Below, piece by piece: positions 14,411 through 49,649 of a DNA stretch of 64,000 nt; the stretch's first letter is position 1; every line of letters begins with the position of its first letter. The translations under genes and the position numbers were made by a program. This DNA is from Rotaria sp. (Eukaryota), in contig CAJNOF010000042.1 of the NCBI GenBank assembly GCA_905250055.1, forward strand, positions 365,805 through 429,804, written 5' to 3'. Below the pieces are notes generated by a model. That model made no database searches. It saw only the letters and a program-made list of their open reading frames with translations, and was not told where the DNA came from.

Positions 14411-16980
14411 TCACATTCGCGTTGGTATTCAAAAAATGGTAATGCAAACGTATTAGCTTTTTCTCAATACTAATGCTAACATGACGCTGCTAGTGGTAAT
14501 TACTGTGTACAAAGAGACATGTATTAGTCACAGTTCTTCTGGATAGGGGTTAGCGCTTAACGCTGCGACGCTTATATGAAAGGTCAGTTACAGAGATGGA
14601 CAAGTCAGAGATTTTTCGATTTCAAGTTAAAGCATTTTTTGAGAGATTCAAGTCACACGTTTTCAAATCAAATTTAATCAAAACTCAATTTGAAGTTTTT
14701 TTTTTTCAAGGATTCTATTCATTATTAAAAAAACAAGTTACCGTAGCTTTTATTCTGCAACAAAGACAATTGAATTTATAACAAAATTTCACAATAACGA
14801 AAAAAAAAATAACTGAAAAAAATCTATTCATGAATATCTTGACTTACGCTTACAAGAAGCATGAAAAATAACGGAGATCATTTGTAAACGAGATGGTCAA
14901 TACAAGTTGCGCAGATTATTTACTTATGGCAAAGTCGTCGGGTCTTTTTTTCATCTTTTAGTGTGTTTATAGAAATATTTGCTAATTTTTTTGAATATTT
15001 TTCTTTGACATTTCACATAAGGCGTAAAAGACAATGTGAGTAAGCATTCTCTACATATATAATCTGTTCAAAAATATAACAACAGACAATTTTCTAACGC
15101 TTTTATTATATGAGTATTATAGTCACATGTTACATTCCTTGACTCATCGATATTTGTTTATTCAGCTCGCATTCCTTGATGCTTTATTCTCTCTTATATA
15201 ATATTCTCTCTTCTCTCGCTTGAGTCAGTGATAGTTGTTAATTCCAAATAAAATCGAACTATAAGAAAGAAGCAAGAGGGGACCTCTGATAATGAGTTTA
15301 CTTTTTATTATTCCTAACAGTTATTTCTATATACATATATGCGTTCAGTTGCGCTCTATCCGAAACTGATGTTAGATATCCACATTCCGCACGCCAGACC
15401 TGAGAAAATGCATTTTTATAAAAGCTCGTACAATTTTAGGTGTACATTAAAAGTGTCAATCAAGCTCAGATTATTGGCTATTAAAACCAAAATCTATATA
15501 GGACTGCTTTTTCTATAATCTCACACCATAAAAGAGACTTTTTGCTACAAAATGAAAAGTCATCAAAACTTGAGAATCATTGTGTTAGAAAGAATGGTGC
15601 CATTTTTCCAATTTTAAATTCTGTACATCGGCAATTATAAGCAAAATTTGATACGAAAATTCTTATTTGTTATTAAATTGACATTTTCTTTCTAACAGAA
15701 TGATTCTCGGGCATCGAAGATTTTTCATTTTGTGACAAAAAGTGTCTTGTATGGTATGAAACTACAGAAAAAGCAGTTCCATATCTATGTTGGTTTTTAT
15801 AGCCAAAAATCTGAGCTAAACTGGCATTTTTTATGTATATCCAAAATTATATGAGTTTTTATAAAAATGCGTTTCCTCAGGGCAGACATACGAAATAAGG
15901 ACATCTGACTTCAGTTTAGAATAGAGTGCAATTGAATGCTTGTACTCATATGCATAAACAATTATCAATAAGAAAAAGTAAACTCATATATAATAAAAGT
16001 GCGAAAAAAAAAATGTCTGTTCTTATATTTTTCGTCACTACTGTATGTTTTTTTACTTGACTTGTCCCGTTCTGATTAGGTATTGCAGAGAAAAGTGTTT
16101 CTCCCGAGTAAACATTCAAGATGAGAATTTTGAGTTATGGAATGAAGAAAAAGAAAATGAGATATTTTCAAAAAGATTTAATTTTTTTCTTTTTTTGGTT
16201 CTAGTTACATGATAGCTTTATTTCAATTGTAAATTATAATTTGAATGAAATTTTTTTATTTGTGCTAGAGAAGTGTCAATTTATTTTTTTTCATTGATAT
16301 TCGAATTCATCTTACGTTGTCGAAGGCTCATTTATATTCAAATTCGAATGAGGCAACTCATGGTGTGTGTCGCAGTTTTGAACATATAAGGACTGGTAAA
16401 ATAAAATATTGATCAAGGCATAATTGTTTGAGAAAAGCAAGACTGATGCGATTCTATGTTTCAAGCAAACACAAAGCCTTCTTCAAATTCAATTTTCAGC
16501 TCACTGTAAGAATAAGAGAAATTGCAAAGATAACTTACAATGTCATTGCCATTGCATATTGATCAAGTATAGCTGCAATATGAATACGCTCCGAAAAAAA
16601 TCCTCAAAAAATGCATTTTGTTTTTCTTCGTGAATGACTAGTTGGTTGTTGTTTCACTGATTAAAGCTTCCCTCCTGAAAGAAAGCCAATTTTCGTAAAA
16701 AATAATGAAAACTAAGATAAATGCATGAGAAGATAGTATAATGTCTAATATTTCAAAAATGACATGTTCTTTTTTTTGGCATCCGCTTTTTTGTCAAAAC
16801 TTTTGATAATTACTGTCGCTTTCTGCTTGAAAAATAAGCTATTTTTTGCTTTTTCTCCTTTTATATATATATTTAATCGCATAACCCAGAATTTTCTTTA
16901 GGTTCTCATTCTATATATTTCTTTTTTTTTGGTTTGACAGAGCAGGTCAAGATGCAGTGCAGTCCAGAGTCATTTTTAAG

Positions 16981-17143
16981 GGTGTTGGTGTGGGTGGGGT
17001 GTGGGTGAGTGTGGGTGAGTGTAGGGTGTAGGTGTGGGTGTGGGTGGAGTGTGGGTGTAGGTGTGTGGTGTGGGTGTGGGGTGCGGGTGTGGGTGTGGAT
17101 GTCGTTGTTCATCTGCTGTTACTTTGGACCCACACCCACATCC
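16981..17143. repeat. Interstitial degenerate telomeric-repeat tract: about 120 bp of (TGTGGG)n-like G-strand, then a short inverted C-strand block (gacccacacccacatcc at 17127-17143).
   Basis: ggtgttggtgtgggtggggtgtgggtgagtgtgggtgagtgtagggtgtaggtgtgggtgtgggtggagtgtgggtgtaggtgtgtggtgtgggtgtggggtgcgggtgtgggtgtggatg. ORF 16906-17112 (HPHP/THT-rich) is just its translation. Confidence 0.75.
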
Positions 17144-17789
17144 TAACGAGTAACAATATAGTTACCCGTTGCTGGTAGTATAACGGTAATTTCTCTCCCT
17201 ACTCAGTATTTTGCATTTTTCCTCAGGAAAACTTTATCAAATCGAAAAAATAAGAACATATTCGTGATCAGCGTCAAAAGCTGAATCTAGTGATGTAAGT
17301 TTCAACTAAAAATAAACGTGCTCAAGTGTTGCATTACTGGCATCTTATTAAGGATATAAGATCTTTAAATCCACCTGATGAAGTCACCGCAAGACAGAAA
17401 CAATCGTTTGTCGTATAATGGGCTATTTCTACTCAACCTGACCATCACTATAGTCGTAGTACTTCTTAAACATAATACTCACCCTCATCGTCACAAGTTT
17501 TTGTCGTTTCTGAAGTTATCTACAGAAGTCAGATGAACCATGAGAAATGCATGTCGTTTTTCCAAATATAAAGTATCTCATTTTACTCAGAGTTTAATGT
17601 TAAGTACGAATATGTAATTCTTTTTGAAGAACATTTAGGGTGAAAAAATGACTTGAACCCTACTGGTCCTTTTATTTTCTATTTTCTTCAATTTATTTCT
17701 TGTTGAACAAATGAAAATTCACAAAATAAAAAACAAATTTTCATGTATCAATTTAAACCAATAATCTTAATTATGGACGTGCAATTTCA

Positions 17790-25160: not shown

Positions 25161-25180
25161 CACCCACATCCACACCCTAC
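25161..25180. repeat. Short telomere-like C-strand fragment (cacccacatccacaccctac), about 1 kb from the 3' end of the S9 peptidase gene.
   Basis: Seen in sequence. Next to a duplicated 22-nt motif tcattcaatttactaa(c/t)acacc (24893 and 25141). Confidence 0.4.
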
Positions 25181-26185
25181 ATGATCAATGAGTTAACTTA
25201 TCTATTGAATGTGCTGATACATTATACTGTTATTCATATACACTATAATAGACTATAATAAAGCTGATATAGATGTATGAATATTTTATGCTGATGTTTT
25301 TTTCGTCTGATGATGGTATCTGAGAAATAGATACCGAAATAACACGTTTATGATTTATGTCAAAAAATTTTAGCTGTTTTTAATTTTTATATTGTGTTTC
25401 ATCTTACATAATTGTCCCATATTTCACTTTTAATACACACATTTACTTGAAGATCTTGTTTGTATCAAACTCCTCATTCAAGAGCATTCTCTGATTGGCT
25501 ATTTTGATGTGCAATCAATTTGTGTAGTTAAACAGTTGAAAGTCCATGAGATGAAAATAGCTTCGAATTCTCACTTTACTCTTATACTTCATGGAATACG
25601 AGAACATCTCGTTTTCTTGTTGACGTTTCGGCTTCCATCAGGTTTTTCTACGACCAAACTCGTACATAAACATCAAAACAGTTATTAATCTTATATTATC
25701 TATTTCAGGAATGTAATTCATATTAATCGGCTTGTTCTGTTGAAATCTGTACATACTAACAACGACAATTAAATGCTGGTAGTATTATTGATTTCATTTT
25801 ATCCAAATCCCTACCAAAAAATTAATTTTATTATTAAATGCAACAAAATATTAAATATTTCGCTGGAATAATTGAAAGTTTTTATTATATCTCTACTTAG
25901 AGAATGATCTGAATGGAGTTCATTTGCCAGCAGAGAATAACTGAGATTTTCTTTTTCTCTCTGATCAAAATACTGTCGCTAAATTGTCATCAAACTTCAA
26001 CGTAATAAGCACTGCTCTCGCAGTTTTTTTCACTTACATTTGATTACTAGCATGTGCCATGTCAAACGTTCCTTTTTACCATCTATTATTATTTTTTTTA
26101 TATCAAATCAACTATTTGAAACGTCATTTTATTAGTGCTTCTTATTCTAGAAAAAGCGTATCCCATTTCAATGCACTTTTCAAAT

Positions 26186-28297
26186 CTAATTGTCATTTAC
26201 CATACAACTTTTATGACCATATTTTTGTAACCATTTAAGTTCTTCTCGAACTTTGATTTTTCCATGCCATGGATTGTTTCGTAATGAATGTCCTTCATTC
26301 GGAAAAACTAATAATTGAACAGGTACACCAAGATAATGTAATCCACGTTCCAATATAAAACTTTGAATAGCAGGAACTCGAATGTCACCTGCTCCAGTAA
26401 CAATGTGCGTCGGCGTACACACTTTATCCAGTTGATTAATAAGAGATTCCCTTTCAAAAGTGTCCGATGCATTCCATGGAAATCCACCAAACAAATAATC
26501 TATAAGCACAGGAAAATCCATAATACCCCAAGTAGAAACATATTCAACTGGTCCAGCACCTGAGAGAGCAGCATTGAAACTTGTCGTTTGTGTTATCAAC
26601 CAGTTGGTTAGAAAACCACCGTAGCTGTAACCACCTACAGCTAAACGATTTCGATCAACAATACCATCTTGAATCAAACGATGGACACCAGAAAGAATAT
26701 CTCTTCCTGGTCGAGTTAAAGGTTGATAACGAATTTCATTAAGAAACTGATCACCATATCCTGTTGATCCTCGGTAGTTTGGTTCCAATACTAACCAACC
26801 TTGCGTAGCTGCCAATGGTGCCCACAAACCTGCACTGGCATGTAATTGATTGATATTTGCTGAATATGGACCACCATGAATAAGTACGAGAAGAGGCAAA
26901 TTTGTTGATTCGAACTTTTCAGGTGGATAATGTAGAAGTCCTTCGATTGTACGATCATCTTCATCGCTTGTCCATTGATAAGTTTTTACTTTAGGTAAAT
27001 TTCGTTCAGTAAATAATTTATTTTCGTTTGTTATTAATTTAGCAGATGTAAGTCGGTTTATGTTGTCAATAACATAAACTTCTTTGGGTTGCCCATAAGA
27101 TGAATAAACAAAAGCAATCGCACTCTTCCCGTGAGAGGATATTGATGATGACGAAATCGATTCATATGTTCCATTCCATCCGCGATGCAAAACTGTATAT
27201 TTTTTCGAAGATTGCTGTGTGTAGATTTGAACATTAGTTCCTAACTGTCCAAGTATATAAACTCCACCATCAGGTCGTATAACGTATTCCATAATGCGAC
27301 CATCAAAGTCTTTTGCTAGACGTTGAGTTTGTCCACTTGTTAGATCCAGCGAATATAATCTTTCTTGAGTAATGATATTTGCACTATTGGTCGATTCTGG
27401 ACCCGACGTACGAAATAGAACATGTTTACCATCATTGGACAATTTTAAATTTGTTTCGAACACTTCATTCGTTGTTAATCTTGATAGTGATGATGTATTG
27501 CAAAGATCGATTGAATATATTTCAAAATCATTCCTCTTTTCAAAGATTCCTTTGACTGATGTAAAAATAAGTTTCTGTTCACATGATGAAAATACGAGTT
27601 CACCAATTTGAAAAGGAACATTTTGGACAATATTTAGATTTGTAGATGTTTGTCGATTTTTTCGATTAATACTCACATGATAGATCGTACTTTCATCAGT
27701 TGCTTTTCGTTTTCGATATTGAATGACATCTTTCCATTCCATATCATCTATATAATCATTTTCTTTTGTTAAATTTGATCGACTTGTAGCAAAATAAAGA
27801 GATGAATCATTGTTGGCCCATGTTATAACAGATGGTACTTTTGATCCGATTGGAATTGGTATCAATCGTTCTGATACGGTACAATATAGATACATGTACT
27901 GTTCTGTTTGAGAGTGACTGTTGGATGAATGACTTAAGTCTGTAGTTTTATTCATGGTATTTGTATTTGTTTTCTCGTTCAATAACAATACAACCCAATT
28001 TCCACTTGGTGACCATTTTGGTTTGAAATTTTCTGATAATTTTTTGGTGATCAATTTTTTTTTATGTCTTGGTGTTTCATAAAGCCAAAGATTGTTTTCA
28101 TATGAGTTCAAATTCCATAATGGTCGCATCGTATGAACTAGTAAATGTCGACCATTTGGAGAAATACTGACCGATGGAAAATGAACGTAATTGAAAAATT
28201 CATCGAATGTAAGGGTTGGTTTCATTGGTATTGATGCAGACAAAACAAATGGGAAAAACAATAGCAATGGTGATATCATTTTGATTCTTCCTGACAA
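26186..28297 (-). CDS. Secreted S9-family serine peptidase (prolyl oligopeptidase / dipeptidyl-peptidase / acylaminoacyl-peptidase type): N-terminal beta-propeller plus C-terminal alpha/beta-hydrolase. 703 aa, intronless.
   Basis: Single uninterrupted ORF. N-terminus MSGRIKMISPLLLFFPFVLSASIP is signal-peptide-like. The C-terminal domain carries the nucleophile elbow GGYSYGG within ..LAVGGYSYGGFLTNWL.., then ..GAGDIRVP.. (Asp) and ..NEGHSL.. (His), the S9 triad order Ser-Asp-His. The block ..LIHGGPYSA.. and the 400-aa propeller-like N-terminal half fit this family. Confidence 0.9.
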   Translation of the reverse strand: MSGRIKMISPLLLFFPFVLSASIPMKPTLTFDEFFNYVHFPSVSISPNGRHLLVHTMRPLWNLNSYENNLWLYETPRHKKKLITKKLSENFKPKWSPSGNWVVLLLNEKTNTNTMNKTTDLSHSSNSHSQTEQYMYLYCTVSERLIPIPIGSKVPSVITWANNDSSLYFATSRSNLTKENDYIDDMEWKDVIQYRKRKATDESTIYHVSINRKNRQTSTNLNIVQNVPFQIGELVFSSCEQKLIFTSVKGIFEKRNDFEIYSIDLCNTSSLSRLTTNEVFETNLKLSNDGKHVLFRTSGPESTNSANIITQERLYSLDLTSGQTQRLAKDFDGRIMEYVIRPDGGVYILGQLGTNVQIYTQQSSKKYTVLHRGWNGTYESISSSSISSHGKSAIAFVYSSYGQPKEVYVIDNINRLTSAKLITNENKLFTERNLPKVKTYQWTSDEDDRTIEGLLHYPPEKFESTNLPLLVLIHGGPYSANINQLHASAGLWAPLAATQGWLVLEPNYRGSTGYGDQFLNEIRYQPLTRPGRDILSGVHRLIQDGIVDRNRLAVGGYSYGGFLTNWLITQTTSFNAALSGAGPVEYVSTWGIMDFPVLIDYLFGGFPWNASDTFERESLINQLDKVCTPTHIVTGAGDIRVPAIQSFILERGLHYLGVPVQLLVFPNEGHSLRNNPWHGKIKVREELKWLQKYGHKSCMVNDN

Positions 28298-29457
28298 CCT
28301 AAAGTAATAAGAAGATATGTACCGTTTTGGATGAATTTTTATGGGTTGTATCAGATAAAGGTTTCATGCGAACTGAAGAATCATACGAGACGATTTAGAA
28401 CGAACTTTTTATATCTATAACATAGAAAAAACAAGGAATGAAAAAAGAATTTTACTCAGCTTAAGTAGTGTTTGCCTTCTTAGGACACTCCATCTTGATT
28501 GTTTATTGAAAATTAAACTTATGTGTTATTGAGATAGCAAAATGAGTTATAATTTTACTTGTTGAACAAAAGAGTTCAAAAATGAATACATTCAAACAAC
28601 AAGGAAAACTAACTTCTGTCTCACATCAAATGCTTTCATTCAAGGGACTAACTTCATAATATTCATGCGTTATCTATTCCGGCTCAGTCCTTTTGATCCA
28701 TTCTGTTGTTCCCAAATTGAATACAACAAACGATAACTTAATGATGCCTTAAACTGACGTTTATTGTCAAGCAAGGTGTGTCATGAAATGTTGTTTTTAA
28801 AAGGTTTTTCTCAACAATTCACGGTACAAGAGACGAGGTACTCTGCCAATAGCTCAAGTGTTCATATTGAAAAATAAGGAAATATTGAGAACAAAATAAA
28901 GCCTACACATACCCTTATTCTGCAAGATATTAGTATGTCTTAGTTTTGTGAACTGCAGATATTTATGTCCATGAAGTTTTATAATCCTACCCTTGAAACA
29001 TGGCGAACACACCTGTACGTATATGTGACACCTTTCGAATAGATTAAAGATAAAAGTATATACATTCGTTGCTGCAGTGAACTTTTTCTTACTTTTTGAT
29101 TTTATATGTTGTCCTGTTATTGTGTTCTCTCGACAAAAAGACATGACATTTTTTTTGTGATCAAGTAAACGAGAGACCAAAATGGTGATTATATCAACAG
29201 CTTTTATTGAATGTGCTAGTCTCACATTGGTATGATACTTGAATACATAGCCTTTTAAATATAATTGCTTTTCAAACGACAATTTAACATCAAGACTATA
29301 ATCTTATATATGATTATATCATAAAAAAGCCTTTTATGTCTGCACAAGATTAGCTCAGAAAGACTTATTGATTTGAAACTTTTCGTCATGCTACTAATCA
29401 ATGCAAGAAAATTTTGACAATCTGGACCTAAAATTTGGATATGCGTGCAGAGAAAAC

Positions 29458-29475
29458 CCACACTCACACCCACCA
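29458..29475. repeat. Short telomere-like C-strand fragment (cccacactcacacccacc) about 1.2 kb from the 5' end of the S9 peptidase gene.
   Basis: Seen in sequence. Confidence 0.35.
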
Positions 29476-29705
29476 TTCAAGGCGCCCTATCAATAGATTA
29501 GGTAACTATACGAGAAAAAAAAAGAAAAGATTGATAGTAGTTTGAAATTGATATATACCATTATTCTTTTCACTATTACCCTCTCATTGTCTTGTAAGCT
29601 GCGGATATTCGTATCCAAGACATTTTATAATCCTTTGATATATATATATATGACAAATGCACCTGCATGTATATAAGACAACTCTTGAATGGATTGAGGA
29701 ATAGT

Positions 29706-30294
29706 AACTATTGTCGAATTTTTAAAAAAAAAGCCAGCCACCATTTTTTGAATAACTCTTCACCATTGATAGCTATCGTGTTCAGGTTTTAACCATTTGA
29801 TAGAGCGGCGCGGGGGGGGGGGGGCGGGGGGATGCTTTTTTTTTTAAACAAATTGTTTAAGGAACATATTTAATTGCTAAGAGTTTTCGTTACCAATTTC
29901 ATTAGTTTTCATAGAGACCTAGGCTTGAATTACACCAAAATGTAGCTCGGAGGGTACTGTATCTGTGATAAACTTTTCAGCTCTTTCTGTCATTGTCTCG
30001 AATACGATAGTTCGTTAAAATTCTGAGAATTTAATCCAAATTCCGGACTCTCCAAGCTAAATTTTAGTGTAATTTAAGCCTAAGTCTCAACGAAAACTAA
30101 TGAAATTGATAACGAAAACTCTTAGCAATTAAATATGTACTATAAAAAACTTCTTTGGTCCTAGTGAGTCTCATATAGATAGACGCCCCTCGTGCCGCTC
30201 TATCGAATGGCTAAAACCTGAACTCGATAGCTATCAATGGTAAAGAGTTATTCAAAAAATGATGGCTGGCATTTAAAAAAAAATTCCACAATAG
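29706..30294. mobile_element. Foldback / MITE-like element, copy B of the family at 7814-8399 (roughly 90% similar over the terminal arms by eye); contains a G15CG6 homopolymer tract at 29803-29830.
   Basis: The termini ctattgtcgaatttttaaaaaaaaagccagccaccattttttgaataactcttcaccattgatagctatcg ... cgatagctatcaatggtaaagagttattcaaaaaatgatggctggcatttaaaaaaaaattccacaatag match copy A, and the interior is likewise palindromic. Confidence 0.65.
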
Positions 30295-33200
30295 TTTCTG
30301 TCTATTTGAAGGATTTTCAATATATAATCGGAGCTTGTCGAATTCTTCTCGTCTATCAGTGATAACAATTGGTTTTGAAAATTATTCGAACATCAATCTG
30401 TTTTTCTTTCTCTCGATCATATTCGACAAGAAATTTCTTTGAAGGTCTTTCTTACAAACATTCCTAGAAACATCATTTAAAAAATCGAAATTGATACAGT
30501 TCAATGTTTGTTGAAAACTATTAAAGAAAATCAAATTTTGGAACGTGAAAAAAAAGAGTAGAGTTTGATTAATATTCATGTAAAAATTATTTTTTACGAA
30601 AATTGTTGATCATCACTGATTGTTTTCGTTCAAGAGTTTTTGAGCAAAACTTCACGATCGTAATAATTTCACTGATTCGTTCGGTAAGAATAACAAAAGT
30701 ATATCAGTAAAGCCAATCAATATCTTTTGATATATTCCTGTTTAATCTTATGACTATCTTGCTTAAATCGATCAATACTAAACTCAATGGTTGTCATTGG
30801 GGGTCAAGCGAAATCCAAGGTTCGACCACCTCAGTCCATAAAAATAATTGAATGACTGTTGCATGTTGTTCAACGATTAATCATTGTTTCATATCGCCTA
30901 TTGTTAGCAGCAATCAATAAAGAAAAGAAAAACCGGAAAGTTGGAAATTTGCGCGAGTTGAGCATTATGTCAGAAAAATGGATTAGCTGTGAAAAAGTCA
31001 ACATTTTGTGTTTAAAAGCCGTTCAAAACAATTTAAACACACATATTGTGAATTGCACAGAGAATCTCCTCGAGTGAATCATTTTTCGTAGTGTGTCAAG
31101 CGTTCGCGTTTGATCCTTTTATCAAATAAACATGAAAATCAGTTTCTTTCCCTTTCACATCTCGTGCCTTACTGTTCCATTTTGATATTTATAAGATCTT
31201 ATGTACTACTTCAATGTAATTTTTAGTTAGGAAAGGATTAGTTGGCGGTGCATTTATACGACTCCTCTTATAAGGAAGAAAGCTAGCTCAGTCGATTGTT
31301 CCAGATGATTGTTTGAGTTTAAGACTAATACGAGTGCTAATTTAATCATGGAAAATTTAAAAATTATCTTCGCAATACTCGTCAATACAGATTCATGTTT
31401 GCTTTTTAGCGTTCAAAGACAACCTCATGTTTGCCGAAGTGATTTGATGGGTATTGGGGTTATGCGTCCCTTGTGCAGAAAGCAAATTTTATACATCAAG
31501 TAGTGTTTTTTCAACAAGACTTATGCTTTTTATGTATATAGAAGAACTGATTGTTGTTTATAGAATGAATTGCTGATCTTGGTCAAGACTTATTTGCTTG
31601 ATTTTGACCAGACAAGATATTCTGAGAAAATCTAAGACAAAATGTAGAAACAATGTCTCGATGTTTGGACGATTGATCTTCAAGAAAACTATCTCGTACG
31701 ATACATATGAAAAGTGACAATTCTTTTATGACATTGGTCTTCATCTTAAAAATATTTCAATATCAATTGATCAATACTTTTGAGATTATCTATTGATTAG
31801 AACGAATCAAAATGTTTTCTGGATCATTTTGAAACATTGAAAACCGTTCATCGTCTGACTAAATTACATTATCCAGTAATGTCAATTCTATTCGATGAAA
31901 TTCAAAACAACTCCACATGTCGAATCGATTTCTCTGTGATTGAACAAAAACTTTCGAACACTCTTTTCATCGACGATCGATTATTTCGAGTGTGATATTC
32001 ACGTCGGTGACTGTAAGAATACGATGAGCAAAAGCATTTAGAACTACCATCATTTTCATGAAGAATTCTCGTGTTTAGATTGAATGTTATTTCCAATAGC
32101 GTGCTACTCTAGTGCCCACTTAGTAGCATGATTTATCGCTCTGTTTCCGACTGAGGAATCCATGTGCAAAGCTTTCGATGAAAATAAGATCTATTCTTTT
32201 CGATTATCAATACCACAAGAGAATATCCTAGAAATTGATGCGATTCCATTTGCTTTTGCTGTTGAATTATCCGACAAGCAACATGAGTTGAATCTACTAA
32301 GATAAATAGGATAAGAACGCTCACATAAGTCGGTAATTACTCGACGTAGAACTTATCAAAAGAGAAAACGACAATTTTAATTACATGTGTATGAGATTTT
32401 GAATCAAAACTCATTCAAAATAAATGTTGAATGTTAAAGTCAACGAAAAATTTTCAAGACGATTTTCATCTGTGAAATTGGTCCGTTCTAAAATTATCGA
32501 GAAAATTCTTGCTTCATCAAGAAAAGACTCAAAAGAAATGAATACATTCAAGAAAGTAAAAAAAACATCGCTATGAAATTGTACCCTTGTTTTCAAAGTC
32601 CAATTTAATCTCGATAACTAGTTTATTGATAATTCTTTTATTTCCTTTTGTAAGAACTCATAATTGTCTAAGCAAATCAGAATATGAGCCGATGTGAATA
32701 TGACACATCGCTTCAAACAAAAACACCTTTCTGATATTGGTCATCTCATGCTATCTGTGGCCAGTTTGTGTCGATAATACTTTCTATACTAGCATTCGTA
32801 AACCGATTACTTGATATTTTATCCTTCACAAGCAGCCATAATCTATGACTGACAACACAACTTCGTCGTCTACTCTTCAGCAGAACTGTTCATCACTTTA
32901 TACTGCTGTCTATTCATCTTCAGCTAAAGCTACTAAGATTGTAAATAAATACATTCGGGTTAGACTCGTTTGAATAGTAATATTACATATAAATTCCTCA
33001 TTAATTCTTCACGGCTAGTGCATAGACTTCTTCCACTTCAAGTTTGCATTAGCTTAGCAATCTATGTGTTTATTTATGTTTTTTTTGTTTCCATCCGTTC
33101 TCTCTGAATTTGATGCATTTGATTTGATTTATGAATTTATTTCAATTGAGAAGTGAGAACCAATTAATGGTGACAGTGCGCTTCGTGTTACTAATAGAAT

Positions 33201-38345: not shown

Positions 38346-41277
38346 TTACTGAAAATATAAACCATTTGATTTTTCCAGTGTCGGTTCAACAGCACAATAA
38401 ACAACTGTATGTGCACCGATTTCAGTCGTTTTAGCAAATACGAATTTCAAATAACGCACGAATGGATAAGACAGATTGAATGCTAACCAACTAATGACGT
38501 GTGCTGATGATCTACTGTGTGAAGTTGATAACCAGCCGGGAGTCAACGCAAAGACATCGATATGTTCCGCTTAAATGAAAATACCTTCGAAACAAATGAT
38601 AATTATCCCATTGACATAATACCGAATAAATCCTGTTTCAGTTTGACTGTCGATAGAATTTGGAATAGCTTCGATGATGGATAAGCACCATGCCAATGAG
38701 GATTTCGAAACTGAGTAAAAATATCTGACCAATTAATTGATTCTATACCTAATTTTAATTTCAAAAAAGAAAGATCTCGTATTTCTTATTCATCAGTTTA
38801 TTACTGTCATGCAGTTCAGATGATACATTGATTATACGACTTGGTCGACATTTTTTCAATTTATCTAATAGAAGGTTTGTAAGAAGAAAATGGCCAAGAT
38901 AATTGGCTTGAATCACTGCATTGAAACCATCTTTAGTCATAATAGGCGATGACCAACTAAGACGAGCATTACAAATCAAGATATCCAATCTTTCTTCCTC
39001 TTCATTGTATAGTTTGGCAAAAGTTCGAACCGATTCCAATGAACAAAGATCACATTCCATCAATCGAATATTGTTTGTATTAGCACTGGTTTCCACGAGA
39101 AGCTTCTCCATTGCTAGACGTCCTTTATGCAGATTTCGACAAGCAATAATAACTCGAGCTCCTAAATATCGATTCATTCATATTGGAAGACTATGATGTG
39201 GCTGAATTGTGGGAGTGTGAATTTAAGTTAGTGTTCTATTTAATTTACGAGCAAATTATGTTAAATTAAGCTTGTTTGCACTTCATAATTTATCACATAA
39301 AAAATTAGATTAGATCATTCAATGCCTTTCTGATATTCTACGTAAGAAATATTGCTCTGAAGGCGAACAAGCACGCTCGTAAATGAGTCTACGATGATAG
39401 ACAGAGATTCTCCACGGTTTTCGTGCATGATGAGCGCATGCAAACATAGCGTCAATTAACAATTTCCGTATACGGAGACTGAAACAAAATAGGAAGTTTT
39501 GGAAAAGTATTCCTTGATTCTCCATTTATGAAGTTAAACGCCTATGGTATACGATCGTCCTATATTTGTAATATCGGATGGTATTTTTAACTATACATAT
39601 TAATTCAACAATTTTTTACAATAATATAAGCATTCTAAAACTATAATTATACAGTTTTTGATCGAAAAATCGCTTTCAAAAATTATTCCTAGGGTCATTG
39701 AACTAGAGAATATTATAACGAAAAAAGAAGCATTCTAAAGGTACGAAAGAATTATAGGTCGAAGGTATAACTATAGTACACAGAACAAATCCATAAAACT
39801 GTTTAATGCAAAGATCTTTCCACTTGCGTCCTTCATTGATATCGGTTAAATGATACACGAGGAAGCAAGAGAAAGAGGAAAGAAAAAAACATCTTTACAT
39901 GGGCCTGGCTAACCATATAGTACCCCGCTTTGCTTTATTTTCTATTATCATGTAAAAAGTCCAATCATATTCAGGTCAAATTATCACCGTCATCGCTTAT
40001 CTACTAAATTTAAAATATTAACTACGGATGACTGTCTGATATGAAATTATTTAGCCCCTTAACGAACGATAGAACACGATTTTTAGGACTCAATAATTGC
40101 ATACAAGACAGCCATCAGCAGCTAATGTTTTAAATGTAGTAGTTTAGCGATAGAGATGATAATTTGGCCGGAATATGGCTAGACTTTTTAAATTTTAATA
40201 GAAAGAAAGCGAAACGAAATATCTTATGGTTGACCACGCCTTAAATACTCTGTACTTTCTTTAGTAAGTTTATTTTATTAATTTTTCCTCTTCTTATAAT
40301 GAAAAGAGATACTATTCTACTGTGTGACTCAAAAGTAGCCTGATAGAGACTTCTTTTCGACTTTCTTTTCTGTATAGATCTATAGGTCAATTTGATATTT
40401 GGACCACATATACTAGATGACAATAAAGAGAGAAAGAACCTATTATCAGATTTCAATTGCAAGAATTCGTTCGAAAATATCCGAATATCTTTCGTATACT
40501 CTTATATGACTGTCACATAAATTCGATAGTGTCTAATCGAAGTAAATGTCTTTTTTCATTATATCTTGTTTTTGAAGAGTTTTCTATGTCACGAGTCTGA
40601 AACAACATAAAGATCAATAGAATTCAAACAGACCAAAAGATAGAAGCACAACTCTACTAGAAAACTAGAAACTTATGTGATAATCATATAAGAATGTACG
40701 GAAGATAGTTGGATATTTTCTGACAAATTCTTATAATCAAGCGCTGAGAATAGGTTCTTTTTCTGATTATTCTCATCTAGTATCTATGATTCAAATATGA
40801 GATCAAACTATAGATCTATAAAGAAAAAAAAGCCGACAAGAACTCTATGTTAGGTTATTTTTTTGGCTACCTTGTATGTTTAAATTTGAATTTATTTTAC
40901 ATTAATAGGAAAATGACACTACCGCTGAATCGAACCTCGTTGAAGCAGATCTTTTACTGTGTCATAGCCAACACCAGTATTTCCTCCTGTGATTAGTACA
41001 GTTTTGCCTTGTATAGATTGTTGACTCGGATAAGATCGACGACTGATCCATAGTTTATTAAACAGCCATGTTGCCGTCACTACGTACAAAAACAGAACGA
41101 TGAAAATAATTGAAGAATGTTGGTGTGTAGTAGAATACCAGTACTACTAGCGATGAGAATAGTCGTACGATATTGATCGAGAAATCGTTGAATGATAAAA
41201 GATGATTCATGAATGATTGTGGCAGACATTTTTCTTGCGCCGTTGACTTTTGTATGACGTTGACAACTGATTGCCAT
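38346..41277 (-). CDS. Retinol-dehydrogenase-like short-chain dehydrogenase/reductase (RDH11/12-type, membrane-anchored). 5-exon model: 41139-41277; 40936-41079; 38805-39161; 38623-38724; 38346-38569. Introns are 59, 1774, 80, 53 nt.
   Basis: Spliced by hand, all GT..AG and in phase: M..SATIIHESSFIIQRFLDQYRTTILIASST|VTATWLFNKLWISRRSYPSQQSIQGKTVLITGGNTGVGYDTVKDLLQR|GARVIIACRNLHKG..RIINVSSELHD|NIFTQFRNPHWHGAYPSSKLFQILSTVKLKQDLF|AEHIDVFALTPGWLSTSHS...FAKTTEIGAHTVVYCAVEPTLEKSNGLYFQ*. This has the Rossmann TGxxxGxG motif, the NVSS block, the active-site YxxxK (Y-P-S-S-K), and HPG to TPG plus the C-terminal EGAQT-like motif typical of RDH11/12/14. Start codon (41277 or 41229) is uncertain. Confidence 0.7.
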
Positions 41278-47387: not shown

Positions 47388-49649
47388 ATGAAAAAATCAT
47401 ATTATTGTCTATGGATTTTTCTTATTACAATACAAAAATTTCTTCAATACGGTCAAACTCAATCCATCAATGATGATTCATTAGATCCATTGAGTATGGA
47501 TGAAGCTTATTTAACAATTAGCAATAAAAATTATTCAGAGTCTATTATATTTATGTATAATTTAGTCGTATGTGAAAAATGTAATTTTGAATTCTTAGGT
47601 GATGTTATTCCATATAATTCAAGTGAAACAGTTATAATTAATACAAAATATGCTCATGATTTTCAAATTTTTACTAAATCTACCAATAAAACATTACAAT
47701 GTTCAATAAAATCACATAAATTTTTCGAACATGGATCATATTTATTTGAAATTATTGAAATAGCACAAAATCAAGATATTTGTTCAATAAAACAAACAAA
47801 AGAATCAAGTTATTATTGGTTACCTATAATTATTGGAATGTCAATTCTTTTAACATTTATTTTATTGATTCAATTATGCCATCCGATATCACGTAGTCGA
47901 CTTGTTACTCGTTTTCTTCCAAATGTTATTCAACAAGGATTAATAAATAATGATTTAATTGTTTCATTACCAAATAATCCAACAACAATTACTAATGATC
48001 CTAATGATGATATTATTCGTACACTTTCAACTAGTAGTGAATTACCATTAGTTGGATCAACACGATTATCAAATAATACAATACGTATAACAAAACTTTT
48101 ACCAAAACGACTTCGTTCATTGGATACTTTTCGAGGATTTTCATTGATGGTAATGATATTTGTTAATTATGGAGGTATGATTTAAAGAATAATTTCATTT
48201 ATTAATATATTTATTACTTATTTATTAAAGGTGGTGGTTATTGGTTTTTTAAACATTCAAGTAAGTTTATTTGTTTTCAACATATGAAAGATTTCTATTG
48301 TTATATGTAGTATGGAATGGTTTAACTGTTGCTGATTTAGTTTTTCCATGGTTTACTTGGATAATGGGTGTATCAATTGTTTTTTCACATTGTTCTATGC
48401 GTGCAAAAAGTGTACGAAAAAGAATAATTTTTTTAAAAATATGTCGACGAACTCTCATACTTTTTATTTTAGGTAAGATAAGCAAAAAAAACAAAGAAAA
48501 TTTTTGTTTTTATTTCATTTTATTGTAAAATTTTAGGTTTAATATTACAAGGTGGTTATTCACGATGGGTATATATTCGAATTTTTGGTGTTCTTCAACG
48601 TTTAGCATTATGTTATTTTTTTGCTGCTATACTTGTTTTAATTTTTGATGATGCAGAAGATGAACCATATTCATCACAATGGCCAATACGTAAAAATTTA
48701 ACTTAAAAAAAAAAGAATTAAATTTAAATATTTGTTAATTAAGGTAATGATGTTCGTCAACAAGTATGCACAGAATTATCAAATACTTTCTTTCATTTTT
48801 GGCCACAATGGATTTTTATATTATTAATAACTCTTCTTTGGATATTGATTACATTTATTCCTAAATTTGAAAATTGTCCAAGAGGTTATTTAGGTCCCGG
48901 TGGAAAACATGAACATGGAAAATATCAAAATTGTACTGGAGGTTATTGAACAAAAACAAAATAATTTTATTGATTAATTAAATCATTTTATTTTTTTTAG
49001 GAGTTGCTGGATATCTTGATCGATTAATTCTTCGAAATTCTCATATGGATAATCATCCAACATGTAAAGATATTTATGATACTCAAATACCATATGATCC
49101 TGAAGGTAAGAACAAAACTAAAAGATATCAAAAATTATTATTTTTTATTTTTTATTATTAGGTCTTTTGGGTATTTTAACTGGAACTTTACTTTGTTATC
49201 TTGGTGTTCAAGCTGGTCATAGTTTTGCTCATTCAACACGTATACGTCGTGTTTGTGCACATTGGCTTATATCTGGTTTTATTTGTGGATCTATTGGTTT
49301 ATTATTATCTAAAGGTGGTTATTCAGATGGTTGGATACCAATTAATAAAAATCTTTGGTCACTTAGTTTTATACTTGTTTTAGCTGGTTTAGCTTTTATT
49401 ATTTTAACAATACTTTATTTACTTATTGATGTTTATAAATGGTTTACTGGTGAACCATTTTTATGGTTAGGTATGAATTCAATTGTTATTTATGTTGGTC
49501 ATGAAGTTTGTTCAAAAACATTTCCTATACAATTTCAAGTCGAAGAAACAACACATGCACAATTACTTGCTATGCATCTTTTTGGAGTTTTCTTTTGGAC
49601 AATCATTGCTGGTATTATGTATCGTAAAAAAATATTTATTGCGATTTAA
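47388..49649 (+). CDS. HGSNAT: Heparan-alpha-glucosaminide N-acetyltransferase (HGSNAT / TMEM76) orthologue. 7 exons: 47388-48174; 48231-48260; 48311-48472; 48537-48689; 48744-48941; 49001-49105; 49162-49649. Introns are 50-64 nt.
   Basis: Hand-spliced, all GT..AG and in phase: ..[59 protein letters not shown]..|[32 protein letters not shown]..|..[68 protein letters not shown]...VGHEVC..*. These are the hallmark HGSNAT blocks (human [69 protein letters not shown]). Signal peptide plus luminal N-domain in exon 1. Confidence 0.85.

What the first reader, a model, noticed from the sequence alone, without database searches (positions are those of the whole stretch)
25161..29475. Intronless, signal-peptide-bearing S9 serine peptidase bracketed by telomeric-repeat fragments: candidate horizontally acquired secreted protease
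The gene is a 2.1-kb single exon encoding a complete S9 enzyme with a cleavable-looking signal peptide and the triad Ser (GGYSYGG), Asp (GAGDIRVP), His (NEGHSL). Every demonstrably native gene in this window is split by 50-60-nt introns. Short C-strand telomeric fragments lie 1.0 kb downstream (25161-25180) and 1.2 kb upstream (29458-29475), and a MITE copy lies at 29706. Gene content and context both fit a foreign gene captured in a subtelomere. A secreted prolyl-oligopeptidase-type enzyme could serve extracellular digestion or defence.
Basis: partly seen in the sequence, partly recalled or inferred. Interest (0 to 1): 0.65.

Follow-up and report, generated by a model that had tools for sequence, protein, structure and literature searches.

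The report
Bacteria-derived secreted peptidase gene in rotifer
This is an intact, intron-free gene for a secreted serine peptidase in a bdelloid rotifer (Rotaria) genome; it descends from an old transfer from soil Acidobacteria and has since multiplied in all bdelloids, a good example of an already well-known phenomenon rather than a fresh capture at a chromosome end.

Summary
A single 2,094-nt ORF (minus strand, 28279..26186, 697 aa rather than 703) encodes a complete S9 peptidase. It has an N-terminal signal-like segment, a seven-bladed propeller, an alpha/beta-hydrolase domain and the triad Ser552/Asp632/His664. Degenerate bdelloid telomeric fragments lie on both sides, and a 597-bp foldback element lies upstream. 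Neighbouring genes are split by introns of about 56 nt.

The window is Rotaria DNA, about 98% identical to Rotaria sp. Silwood1. Outside bdelloids, the closest relatives are all bacterial. The 80 best of at least 594 bacterial loci are Acidobacteriota (Terriglobia), at 39-44% identity over the full length. In a neighbour-joining tree the bdelloid proteins are monophyletic (200/200 bootstraps) and group with Terriglobia (199/200). Mammalian APEH and DPP4 match the catalytic domain only (56-68 bits against 471).

The transfer is old:
- Codon usage is host-like (GC3 0.21).
- Orthologues and paralogues in Rotaria, Adineta and Didymodactylos are also intronless and carry signal peptides.
- dN/dS is about 0.25.

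The locus lies at least 231 kb from a contig end. A. vaga paralogues lie 3-6 Mb from chromosome ends. The horizontal origin is therefore supported; capture in a subtelomere is not shown. This is a new member of a known kind, of modest interest.

The parts
26186..28279 (-). Complete single-exon CDS of the S9 peptidase (697 aa plus stop at 26188-26186)
   Evidence: ORF list. ATG at 28279-28277, with an in-frame stop upstream. Pfam PF00326 E=6e-38. 98% identical to the Rotaria sp. Silwood1 protein P0001. AlphaFold2 model has mean pLDDT 91.5.
28232..28279 (-). Codons 1-16, predicted ER signal peptide MISPLLLFFPFVLSAS (predicted cleavage after Ser16)
   Evidence: Maximum 9-residue Kyte-Doolittle hydropathy is 2.9. 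The same segment is encoded upstream of the annotated start in Silwood1, with 2 synonymous changes, and in R. sordida. 23 of 27 bdelloid paralogues, and the bacterial sister proteins, have an equivalent segment just before the conserved KPKLTLDEFFN motif.
27005..28222 (-). N-terminal beta-propeller domain (residues ~20-425, about seven four-stranded blades). A disordered Asn/Thr/Ser-rich insert lies at residues 104-120.
   Evidence: Secondary structure and pLDDT of the model. Full-length structural matches to S9C-type peptidases with TM 0.74-0.85.
26210..27004 (-). C-terminal alpha/beta-hydrolase catalytic domain (residues ~426-690). It carries HGGP468-471, Ser552 (26626-26624), Asp632 (26386-26384) and His664 (26290-26288).
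   Evidence: Pfam match covers residues 495-693. H468, G469, G550, S552 and G554 are invariant in 114 aligned sequences, and D632 and H664 are conserved in at least 90%. Codons checked.
26128..26133 (-). AATAAA candidate polyadenylation signal, 53 nt after the stop codon
   Evidence: The motif and the surrounding 3' region are conserved in the R. sordida orthologue.
25161..25180 (+). Degenerate C-strand telomeric fragment (ACACCC ACATCC ACACCC), 1.0 kb 3' of the gene
   Evidence: Present in the Silwood1 contig. It lies beyond the point (~25809) where synteny with R. sordida ends.
29457..29475 (+). Degenerate C-strand telomeric fragment (CCCACA CTCACA CCCACC), 1.2 kb 5' of the gene
   Evidence: Conserved in more degenerate form at the orthologous R. 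sordida position, so it predates that species split.
29703..30299 (.). 597-bp foldback (MITE-like) element. It is not part of the gene and was inserted later.
   Evidence: Inverted arms 83-91% complementary. Copies at 7811-8399 and 52473-52722. Precisely absent from the R. sordida orthologous locus.

Best explanation
The window comes from a bdelloid rotifer of the genus Rotaria. The gene is one paralogue of a bdelloid-wide family of S9 (S9C-like, acylaminoacyl-peptidase/carboxypeptidase/DPP5-type) serine peptidases. The family descends from a single, ancient horizontal transfer from a bacterium related to Terriglobia (Acidobacteriota). The transfer predates the split of Adineta, Rotaria and Didymodactylos. 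After it, the gene took on host codon usage and a eukaryotic poly(A) signal, remained intronless, and kept an N-terminal secretion signal at the same place as the donor's Sec signal. It then duplicated many times.

Proposed mechanism, inferred from family membership and the model:
- The signal peptide directs the protein into the ER and it is secreted, most plausibly into the gut lumen or another extracellular or lysosomal compartment.
- The seven-bladed propeller caps the active site, so that only short peptides reach the Ser552-Asp632-His664 triad.
- The HGGP loop and the residue following the nucleophile provide the oxyanion hole.
- The enzyme trims oligopeptides as an exo- or oligopeptidase.

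The flanking telomeric fragments and the foldback element reflect a TE-rich, rearrangement-prone neighbourhood. They do not record how or when the gene entered the genome.

Shown here: gene integrity, family, bacterial affinity, age, purifying selection and conservation of the signal segment. Inferred: secretion, substrate class and physiological role.
For: **Organism.** The locus is 97-98.5% identical in DNA to the Rotaria sp. Silwood1 contig CAJNZC010000031.1. All 120 best protein hits that carry a source name are bdelloid; unnamed ones are metagenome or raw-read assemblies.

**Bacterial affinity.**
- The best non-bdelloid representative is P0127, from Candidatus Acidiferrales: 40% identity over residues 16-689, 471 bits.
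- Its relative P0128 sits on a 66%-GC contig beside TonB-type OMP and EgtB/EgtD-like genes.
- A GTDB scan found at least 594 bacterial loci. The best 80 are all Acidobacteriota/Terriglobia at 39-44% identity over residues ~1-688, some on complete chromosomes.
- NJ bootstrap out of 200: bdelloid monophyly 200, bdelloid + Terriglobia + P0133 199, Terriglobia 196.
- The window protein is on average 43% identical to Terriglobia and 25% to other bacterial S9 proteins.
- Metazoan comparators: porcine APEH 67.7 bits and human DPP4 55.7 bits, catalytic domain only. The HGT-index analogue is therefore about 400, against a threshold of 30 (definition in PMC3499245).

**Age.**
- GC3 is 0.21 and RSCU correlates at r=0.90 with neighbouring genes. 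The bacterial sister gene has GC3 0.84 and r=-0.64.
- The R. sordida orthologue is syntenic on the 5' side over 7.5 kb.
- Paralogues occur in three bdelloid genera.

**Intronless in every copy checked.** Gene length equals 3 x (aa+1) in Silwood1, R. sordida, R. socialis and four A. vaga genes.

**Function retained.** dN/dS is 0.24-0.33. The triad and HGGP are conserved. The model is confident, and its best structural matches are bacterial S9 carboxypeptidases and archaeal AAP.

**Signal segment.** It is conserved and sits immediately before KPKLTLDEFFNYV in both bdelloids and Terriglobia.
Against: - No broad metazoan protein set could be searched directly. The metazoan comparison rests on PDB entries and on the 30 representatives sent for name look-up among the top 150; about a dozen returned an organism or function name, none of them non-bdelloid metazoan. 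A closer homologue in monogononts, seisonids or acanthocephalans would move the transfer earlier.
- The tree is neighbour-joining with a simple distance correction, not maximum likelihood.
- Secretion is inferred from sequence only. The n-region has no basic residue, and public annotations of the three closest orthologues start at an internal Met, without the signal.
- No expression data were available.
- Substrate specificity is undetermined. The best NCBIfam model (Dpp5) scores 148 bits against a cut-off of 900.
Confidence: 0.85

Rival explanations
1. One reading: a recently acquired foreign gene captured at a chromosome end. On this view the telomeric fragments on both sides are footprints of that capture.
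For: - Telomeric fragments do flank the gene, and they are far commoner in the window than chance allows.
- The region holds repeated elements and a structural variant with a telomeric repeat at its junction.
- Synteny with R. sordida ends 380 bp 3' of the stop, at a telomere-like motif in R. sordida.
- Bdelloid telomeric regions are known to combine TEs, foreign ORFs and short telomeric stretches (PMC2861651).
Against: - Only 39-44% identity to the nearest bacteria.
- Fully host-like codon usage.
- Orthologues in other Rotaria species and paralogues in Adineta and Didymodactylos.
- The upstream fragment is shared with R. sordida, so it is older than that species split and says nothing about when this copy arose.
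- The locus is at least 231 kb from a contig end.
- A. vaga paralogues lie 3.35-5.9 Mb from chromosome ends.
Confidence: 0.04
2. Vertical inheritance: an ancient animal or eukaryotic S9 gene, or an intronless retrocopy of the host's own APEH/DPP gene, retained only in bdelloids.
For: - S9 peptidases are universal.
- Mammalian APEH is a significant structural match (TM ~0.7).
- Intronless genes can arise by retroposition.
Against: - APEH and DPP4 match the catalytic domain only, at 56-68 bits, whereas Acidobacteriota give 471 bits over the full length.
- The bdelloid clade groups with Terriglobia within bacterial diversity.
- The mature N-terminus KPKLTLDEFFNYV is shared with Terriglobia.
- None of the top-150 representatives whose look-up returned a name is a non-bdelloid eukaryote.
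Confidence: 0.05
3. Artefact: bacterial contamination or a mis-assembly joining bacterial DNA to rotifer DNA.
For: The nearest non-rotifer homologues are bacterial, and the gene lacks introns.
Against: - GC is 35% and GC3 0.21, like the flanking intron-bearing animal genes; the bacterial sister gene has GC 67%.
- The same gene, with the same flanks, is present in independent assemblies of Silwood1 and of R. sordida (two assemblies).
- A conserved AATAAA follows the stop.
- Sigma-70-like sites are not enriched.
Confidence: 0.01
4. A decaying or non-enzymatic copy: a pseudogene, or a pseudo-peptidase that has lost catalysis.
For: - The family is large, so individual copies may be redundant.
- This lineage has a disordered low-complexity insert at residues 104-120.
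- dN/dS of 0.24-0.33 is only moderately low.
Against: - The 697-codon ORF is uninterrupted and conserved in three species.
- All catalytic and oxyanion motifs are intact.
- Of the 27 differences from the Silwood1 allele, 14.5 are synonymous (dN/dS 0.24).
- The 3' signal is conserved.
Confidence: 0.05

Closest known systems
Horizontally acquired genes of bdelloid rotifers (Gladyshev, Meselson & Arkhipova 2008; Boschetti et al. 2012, PMC3499245; Nowell et al. 2024, PMC11258130)
   Same: - A non-metazoan-type enzyme gene in a bdelloid genome, with an HGT-index analogue far above 30.
- Expressed-gene features: host codon usage and a poly(A) signal.
- It sits among TEs and short telomeric repeats, as described for bdelloid foreign genes (PMC2861651).
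- It was inherited from a common bdelloid ancestor. PMC11258130 reports the same for most pathogen-induced HGT candidates.
   Different: - No paper in the searchable library mentions this S9 family in bdelloids.
- The locus is not demonstrably subtelomeric.
- The probable donor group (Terriglobia) and the in-place retention of the secretion signal are specific to this case.
Terriglobia (Acidobacteriota) secreted S9 family peptidases (e.g. MGC1105854.1 / P0127; loci L010-L089)
   Same: - Same length and two-domain architecture.
- 39-44% identity end to end.
- The same mature N-terminal motif KPKLTLDEFFNYV directly after a signal peptide.
- The same HGGP / GxSxGG / D / H motifs.
   Different: - The bacterial genes have 54-67% GC, with bacterial-type signals (basic n-region, A-x-A) and bacterial gene neighbourhoods.
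- The rotifer gene is AT-rich, has a eukaryotic-type signal and poly(A) signal, and carries a lineage-specific disordered insert.
MEROPS S9C-type enzymes with solved structures: Geobacillus stearothermophilus S9 carboxypeptidase (8WT1), Fusobacterium nucleatum carboxypeptidase (7EP9), Pyrococcus horikoshii acylaminoacyl peptidase (4HXE), Deinococcus radiodurans S9 peptidase (5YZM), mammalian AAP/APEH (7PX8)
   Same: The same fold over the whole length (Foldseek E down to 3e-43, TM 0.74-0.85), with the same catalytic-triad order and propeller-gated active site.
   Different: - Only 15-20% sequence identity.
- To my knowledge these enzymes are cytosolic and oligomeric; this was not checked here. 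The rotifer protein carries a secretion signal.
- Which specificity it has (carboxypeptidase, acyl-aminoacyl or dipeptidyl) cannot be read from the sequence.
Dipeptidyl-peptidase 5 (Porphyromonas Dpp5, NCBIfam NF053518)
   Same: The best-scoring curated bacterial family model. It aligns over nearly the whole protein (residues 23-687 to profile positions 3-653 of 655). From my own knowledge, not checked here, Dpp5 enzymes are exported.
   Different: The score of 148 bits is far below the equivalog cut-off of 900, so the protein is not a Dpp5 orthologue.

Membership tests
Peptidase family S9 (prolyl oligopeptidase family, clan SC) | Significant match to the S9 catalytic-domain profile (Pfam PF00326) above its gathering threshold | tested here: met
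   130.9 bits against a cut-off of 22.6, E=6e-38, residues 495-693.
Peptidase family S9 (prolyl oligopeptidase family, clan SC) | Catalytic triad in the order Ser-Asp-His, with the nucleophile in a GxSxGG elbow, plus the HGGP oxyanion loop | tested here: met
   GGYS552YGG, D632, H664 and HGGP468-471 are present. In 114 homologues S552, H468 and G469 are invariant, and D632 and H664 are conserved in at least 90%.
Peptidase family S9 (prolyl oligopeptidase family, clan SC) | N-terminal beta-propeller domain covering the active site of a C-terminal alpha/beta hydrolase | tested here: met
   The AlphaFold2 model (pLDDT 91.5) shows about seven four-stranded blades, then an alpha/beta domain. Full-length matches to solved S9 structures.
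Peptidase family S9 (prolyl oligopeptidase family, clan SC) | Serine-dependent peptidase activity restricted to oligopeptides | not testable with these tools
   Needs recombinant enzyme, a substrate panel and an S552A control.
Subfamily S9C (acylaminoacyl-peptidase type) | Closer in sequence and structure to AAP-type enzymes than to POP (S9A), DPP4 (S9B) or glutamyl endopeptidase (S9D) | tested here: inconclusive
   The top sequence and structure matches are S9C-type carboxypeptidases and AAPs, ahead of DPP4 and POP. Identity is only 15-20%. S9D structures were not compared explicitly, and no MEROPS classification was run.
Dipeptidyl-peptidase 5 (NCBIfam NF053518 equivalog) | Score at or above the curated equivalog cut-off | tested here: not met
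   148.4 bits against a cut-off of 900.
Bdelloid horizontally acquired gene (HGT candidate in the sense of Boschetti 2012 / Gladyshev 2008) | Best non-metazoan match exceeds best metazoan match by at least 30 bits (hU >= 30), excluding the recipient clade | tested here: met
   471 bits to an Acidobacteriota protein against 67.7 bits to mammalian APEH. Caveat: the metazoan side was sampled only through the PDB and through the representatives whose name look-up returned a name.
Bdelloid horizontally acquired gene (HGT candidate in the sense of Boschetti 2012 / Gladyshev 2008) | Phylogenetic placement of the animal sequences within or beside a non-metazoan clade | tested here: met
   NJ bootstrap out of 200: bdelloid clade 200, bdelloid + Terriglobia + P0133 199, nested among other bacterial S9 sequences. 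Maximum likelihood was not run.
Bdelloid horizontally acquired gene (HGT candidate in the sense of Boschetti 2012 / Gladyshev 2008) | Physical linkage to bona fide animal genes (not contamination) | tested here: met
   On the same contiguous sequence as intron-bearing SDR, HGSNAT-like, DGK and NHL genes. The same linkage appears in independent assemblies.
Bdelloid horizontally acquired gene (HGT candidate in the sense of Boschetti 2012 / Gladyshev 2008) | Transcription in the animal | not testable with these tools
   No transcriptome data were accessible. There is indirect support only: dN/dS of 0.25 and a conserved AATAAA.
Subtelomeric foreign-gene region (Gladyshev et al. 2008 type) | Location within about 100 kb of a chromosome end (criterion recalled from memory of Gladyshev et al. 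2008, not checked here) | tested here: not met
   The orthologous Silwood1 locus is 231-253 kb from the nearer end of a 972-kb contig. A. vaga paralogues lie 3.35-5.9 Mb inside chromosomes of 16.9 and 20.4 Mb. The position of this exact locus on a complete Rotaria chromosome is unknown.
Subtelomeric foreign-gene region (Gladyshev et al. 2008 type) | Mixture of TEs, short telomeric-repeat stretches and foreign ORFs | tested here: met
   13 telomeric 12-mers in 64 kb, including a ~130-bp array at 16978-17107. Also a foldback element and other repeats, the S9 gene itself, and a TrkH-type gene.

The most novel reading that the evidence does not exclude
One transfer of a secreted S9 peptidase from a Terriglobia-like soil bacterium into the bdelloid ancestor seeded a large radiation of intronless, secreted paralogues. 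There are at least 6 distinct genes in A. vaga and at least 15 protein clusters in Rotaria sp. Silwood1. The bacterial Sec signal was converted in place into an ER signal, because the cleavage junction before KPKLTLDEFFNYV is retained. The radiation would then be an adaptive extracellular peptide-degrading toolkit (gut digestion of microbial prey, or defence), with copies relocated repeatedly through rearrangement-prone, telomere-repeat-marked regions.
Probability: 0.4. Interest if true: 0.45.

Novelty: new member of a known kind. Interest (0 to 1): 0.3.

Why it matters
Bdelloid rotifers are the textbook case of large-scale gene acquisition by an animal, so one more foreign enzyme gene is expected rather than surprising. 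This case is nevertheless unusually clean and could serve as a worked example.
- The probable donor group can be named: Terriglobia, soil and peat Acidobacteria that share the rotifers' habitat.
- The transfer can be dated as older than the bdelloid radiation.
- The family shows how a bacterial exported enzyme becomes a eukaryotic secreted one: the signal-peptide position is kept, codon usage is fully ameliorated, a poly(A) signal is gained and no introns are gained.

It also gives two cautions. Local telomeric-repeat fragments and absence of introns do not show recency or a subtelomeric position. And public annotations of the closest orthologues cut off the signal peptide, which would hide the secreted nature of the family in automated surveys.

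Tried and rejected
A 7-sequence alignment worked.
2. The first bootstrap with Biopython's NJ timed out. I replaced it with a numpy NJ.
3. Literature searches for this S9 family in bdelloids found nothing. The held supplements of PMC11258130 also gave nothing (the first 200 of 206 files). A search for the PDB codes 7EP9 and 8WT1, and one for S9 carboxypeptidase specificity determinants, gave nothing usable. Specificity is therefore left open.
4. The PDB sequence search alone did not separate bacterial from metazoan affinity convincingly, because most hits cover only the catalytic domain. The representative search and the GTDB scan were needed.
5. My generic GT..AG intron finder was noisy and gave spurious 'introns' inside the S9 ORF. 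Only the two introns confirmed by restored motifs are relied on.
6. The sigma-70 promoter and terminator scan showed no enrichment, so there is no sign of retained bacterial signals.
7. tblastn found no second S9 copy or fragment in the window, so this is not a local tandem family.
8. I considered and rejected contamination, a retrocopy of host APEH/DPP, and a pseudogene (see the rival explanations).

Full report
**1. What is in the sequence**

The region holds one long ORF on the minus strand, open from 28297 to 26186. The first ATG is at 28279-28277, with in-frame stops further upstream, so the coding sequence is 28279..26186, or 697 aa.

Pfam places residues 495-693 in Peptidase_S9 (130.9 bits, cut-off 22.6).
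- GGYS552YGG, with the Ser codon at 26626-26624;
- GAGD632IRVP, with the Asp codon at 26386-26384;
- NEGH664SL, with the His codon at 26290-26288;
- HGGP at residues 468-471.

An AlphaFold2 model built on 114 homologues is confident (mean pLDDT 91.5, pTM 0.92). It shows about seven four-stranded propeller blades followed by an alpha/beta-hydrolase domain. One disordered Asn/Thr/Ser-rich insert lies at residues 104-120. Its best structural matches cover the full length:
- bacterial S9 carboxypeptidases (Geobacillus 8WT1, Fusobacterium 7EP9);
- Pyrococcus acylaminoacyl peptidase;
- the Deinococcus S9 peptidase;
- mammalian AAP, with lower scores.

The best curated bacterial family model is Dpp5, but at 148 bits against a cut-off of 900. 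The protein is therefore S9C-like and not an orthologue of any characterised enzyme.

**2. The flanking features**

The telomeric fragments are real. The sequence at 25161-25180 is ACACCCACATCCACACCCTA, and at 29457-29474 it is CCCACACTCACACCCACC. TGTGGG is the bdelloid telomeric unit (PMC7943196). The window has 13 matches to (CCCACA)2 at up to 1 mismatch against 0.02 expected. It has 12 matches to (CCCACA)3 at up to 3 mismatches against none expected. These include a ~130-bp G-strand array at 16978-17107.

The 'MITE' is a 597-bp foldback element at 29703-30299. Another copy lies at 7811-8399 and a fragment at 52473-52722.

The neighbours are an SDR/RDH-type gene, an HGSNAT-like gene, a diacylglycerol kinase, an NHL-repeat gene, a Laminin_G_3 gene, a TrkH-type transporter gene and an ART-like ORF. 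Two short introns were verified by restored motifs:
- 38804..38749 (56 nt) restores NVSS...YPSSK in the SDR gene;
- 49106..49161 (56 nt) restores PYDPEG|LLG in the HGSNAT-like gene.

The DGK gene, however, has an uninterrupted 1.44-kb exon, so 'every native gene is finely split' is a little too strong.

**3. Whose genome it is**

The protein is 98% identical to an unnamed protein of Rotaria sp. Silwood1. The DNA is 97-98.5% identical to contig CAJNZC010000031.1 over the shared parts. The window is therefore a second haplotype, another isolate or a very close relative of that species.

The two sequences differ structurally. Window 30581-52091, which holds the SDR and HGSNAT-like genes, is missing from the GenBank contig. 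There it is replaced by about 1.3 kb, which includes a copy of an element that is 100% identical to window 4397-5568 and carries a telomeric repeat. R. sordida shares the window's arrangement at least as far as 35.8 kb.

**4. Origin of the gene**

All of the 120 best hits that carry a source name are from Rotaria, Adineta or Didymodactylos, at 50-98% identity. This is a large bdelloid family. At least 15 clusters at 90% identity are named from Silwood1 alone, and six distinct genes come from the A. vaga chromosome-level assembly.

In an exhaustive search of 1.84 billion cluster representatives, the score drops from the bdelloid family to P0127, at 40% identity over residues 16-689 and 471 bits. 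P0127 belongs to Candidatus Acidiferrales MAGs. Other named near hits are Saccharimonadales, Acidobacteriota, Terriglobales and Calditrichota. P0128 lies on a 66%-GC contig beside a TonB-type outer-membrane protein gene and EgtB/EgtD-like genes.

A scan of one genome per GTDB species found at least 594 bacterial loci. The best 80 are all Acidobacteriota, mostly labelled Terriglobia, Terriglobales or Acidobacteriaceae. They show 39-44% identity over residues ~1-688, and some lie on complete chromosomes.

I built a neighbour-joining tree of 27 bdelloid, 18 Terriglobia-type and 85 other sequences over 641 columns. Bootstrap support out of 200 was:
- bdelloid monophyly, 200;
- bdelloid + Terriglobia + P0133, 199;
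- Terriglobia monophyly, 196.

That group is nested among other bacterial S9 proteins.

The best metazoan proteins I could score are porcine APEH (67.7 bits) and human DPP4 (55.7 bits), and both match the catalytic domain only. In terms of the HGT index of Boschetti et al. (PMC3499245), the value is about 400 against a threshold of 30. None of the representatives whose name look-up returned a name is a non-bdelloid animal. Two limits apply: no comprehensive metazoan database could be queried, and the tree is distance-based.

**5. Age and fate after transfer**

The gene is thoroughly domesticated.
- GC3 is 0.21 and RSCU correlates at r=0.90 with the pooled neighbouring exons. The bacterial sister gene has GC3 0.84 and r=-0.64.
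- An AATAAA lies 53 nt after the stop and is conserved in R. sordida.
- Sigma-70-like sites are not enriched.
- dN/dS is 0.24 (Silwood1), 0.26 (R. sordida), 0.29 (R. socialis) and 0.33 (an A. vaga paralogue).

Every copy I looked up is intronless, because gene length equals the coding length. This holds for Silwood1, R. sordida, R. socialis and four A. vaga genes. Intron absence is thus a stable family trait kept since before the bdelloid genera diverged. It is not a mark of recent arrival.

**6. Secretion signal**

The N-terminus MISPLLLFFPFVLSAS|IPMKPTL has a hydrophobic core and small residues at -3 and -1. Of 27 bdelloid family members, 23 have an equivalent segment. The four exceptions are annotations that start at an internal Met. 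In Silwood1 the upstream ATG and signal codons are present with two synonymous differences. R. sordida also has an in-frame upstream signal.

The Terriglobia proteins carry typical bacterial signals ending just before the same mature sequence...A-x-A|(D)KPKLTLDEFFNYV in bacteria...|(T)KPKLTLDEFFNY in bdelloids. The export signal has therefore been kept, or remodelled, in place. The protein has six N-x-S/T sequons. Secretion itself remains an inference.

**7. The telomere and subtelomere argument**

The Silwood1 orthologue lies 231-253 kb from the nearer end of a 972-kb contig. The A. vaga paralogues lie at 3.35, 3.95 and 5.9 Mb on a 16.9-Mb chromosome and at 4.9 Mb on a 20.4-Mb chromosome.

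The local history is as follows:
- The foldback element is precisely absent from the R. sordida orthologous locus, so it inserted later.
- The upstream telomeric fragment is present but more degenerate in R. sordida, so it is an old relic that predates that species split.
- On the 3' side, synteny with R. sordida ends about 380 bp after the stop (window ~25809). At that point R. sordida carries head-to-head telomere-like motifs.
- The window's own fragment at 25161 lies in the non-syntenic part.

The telomeric fragments therefore look like scars of local rearrangement or TE activity. That fits what is described for bdelloid TE-rich regions (PMC2861651; PMC7943196). They carry no information about the original entry of the gene, which happened long before. 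Whether this paralogue was moved here through a chromosome-end event cannot be decided.

**8. Mechanism**

Most likely this is a secreted S9C-like serine exo- or oligopeptidase. After signal cleavage, the propeller restricts access to short peptides. Ser552, Asp632 and His664 hydrolyse them, with the HGGP loop contributing to the oxyanion hole. The established properties of family S9 support this, and the model is compatible with it. The exact specificity (C-terminal, acyl-amino-terminal or dipeptidyl) and the physiological role (gut digestion of microbial prey is the simplest guess; defence is possible) are not determined.

**9. Verdict**

The phenomenon is well known in bdelloids. I found no paper describing this S9 family or its Terriglobia affinity, so I class it as a new member of a known kind, with modest interest (0.3).

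Noticed in passing
window 59975-63049 (-); L090:5454-8148: A TrkH-type cation transporter gene (Pfam PF02386, E=1e-13) is split into several ORFs by candidate short introns. To my knowledge, animals otherwise lack Trk/HKT transporters, so this may be a second foreign gene, one that has gained introns. In A. vaga a 773-aa TrkH gene lies about 300 bp from the S9 paralogue P0104. The S9-TrkH linkage may therefore be old, or both may simply sit in HGT-rich regions.
   Followed up: partly
window 30581-52091 vs L001:6297-7637: A 21.5-kb segment carrying the SDR and HGSNAT-like genes is absent from the GenBank Silwood1 contig. There it is replaced by about 1.3 kb, which contains a copy 100% identical to window 4397-5568 and a telomeric repeat (L001:6766). 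R. sordida shares the window's arrangement as far as 35.8 kb. This is a large haplotype or isolate deletion with a TE/telomere-repeat junction.
   Followed up: partly
window 16978-17146: A ~130-bp degenerate G-strand telomeric array (TGTGGG)n is followed after about 20 nt by a short C-strand fragment, i.e. head-to-head. It is also present in the Silwood1 contig. It may be an internal relic of a former chromosome end or of a telomere-associated retroelement junction.
   Followed up: no
L006:12418-12478 (R. sordida), corresponding to window ~25809: Synteny between the window and R. sordida ends 380 bp 3' of the S9 stop codon. In R. sordida the break coincides with GGGTGTGG...GTGTGGGC followed by CCCATACCCGCA, which are head-to-head telomere-like motifs.
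   Followed up: partly
window 28874-29174, partly repeated at 29487-29695: A ~300-bp segment 0.6-0.9 kb upstream of the ATG is conserved at 70-77% in R. sordida and upstream of the R. socialis gene. It is partly duplicated in tandem, and the telomeric fragment sits between the copies. It could be a regulatory region, a UTR or an old repeat. The 142-aa ORF there (28854-29282) starts with TTG and looks non-coding.
   Followed up: no
P0001, P0002, P0003, P0009 (public annotations); L001:9947-10000, L006:9959-10000: Public gene models of the closest orthologues start at an internal Met and omit the signal peptide. The signal is nevertheless encoded in frame just upstream. Automated surveys would miss that these proteins are secreted.
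   Followed up: yes
window 6009-6863 (-); L092:6067-8022: A Laminin_G_3 (concanavalin-like) gene lies in the window. Another lies next to the A. vaga S9 paralogue P0102. This may be coincidence, or it may reflect co-location of expanded or foreign gene families.
   Followed up: no
window 29810-29832: A G-rich tract (GGCGCGGGGGGGGGGGGGCGGGGGG) lies inside one arm of the foldback element, in a genome that is otherwise about 31% GC.
   Followed up: no
window 2911-3510 (-): A 199-aa ORF gives a weak match to NAD:arginine ADP-ribosyltransferase (PF01129, E=3e-6).
   Followed up: no
L002:8494-9747: In A. vaga the S9 paralogue P0082 sits 250 bp from a Beta-lactamase-family gene (PF00144), and a Macro-PARP gene lies on its other side. 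This may be another cluster of non-metazoan-type genes.
   Followed up: no
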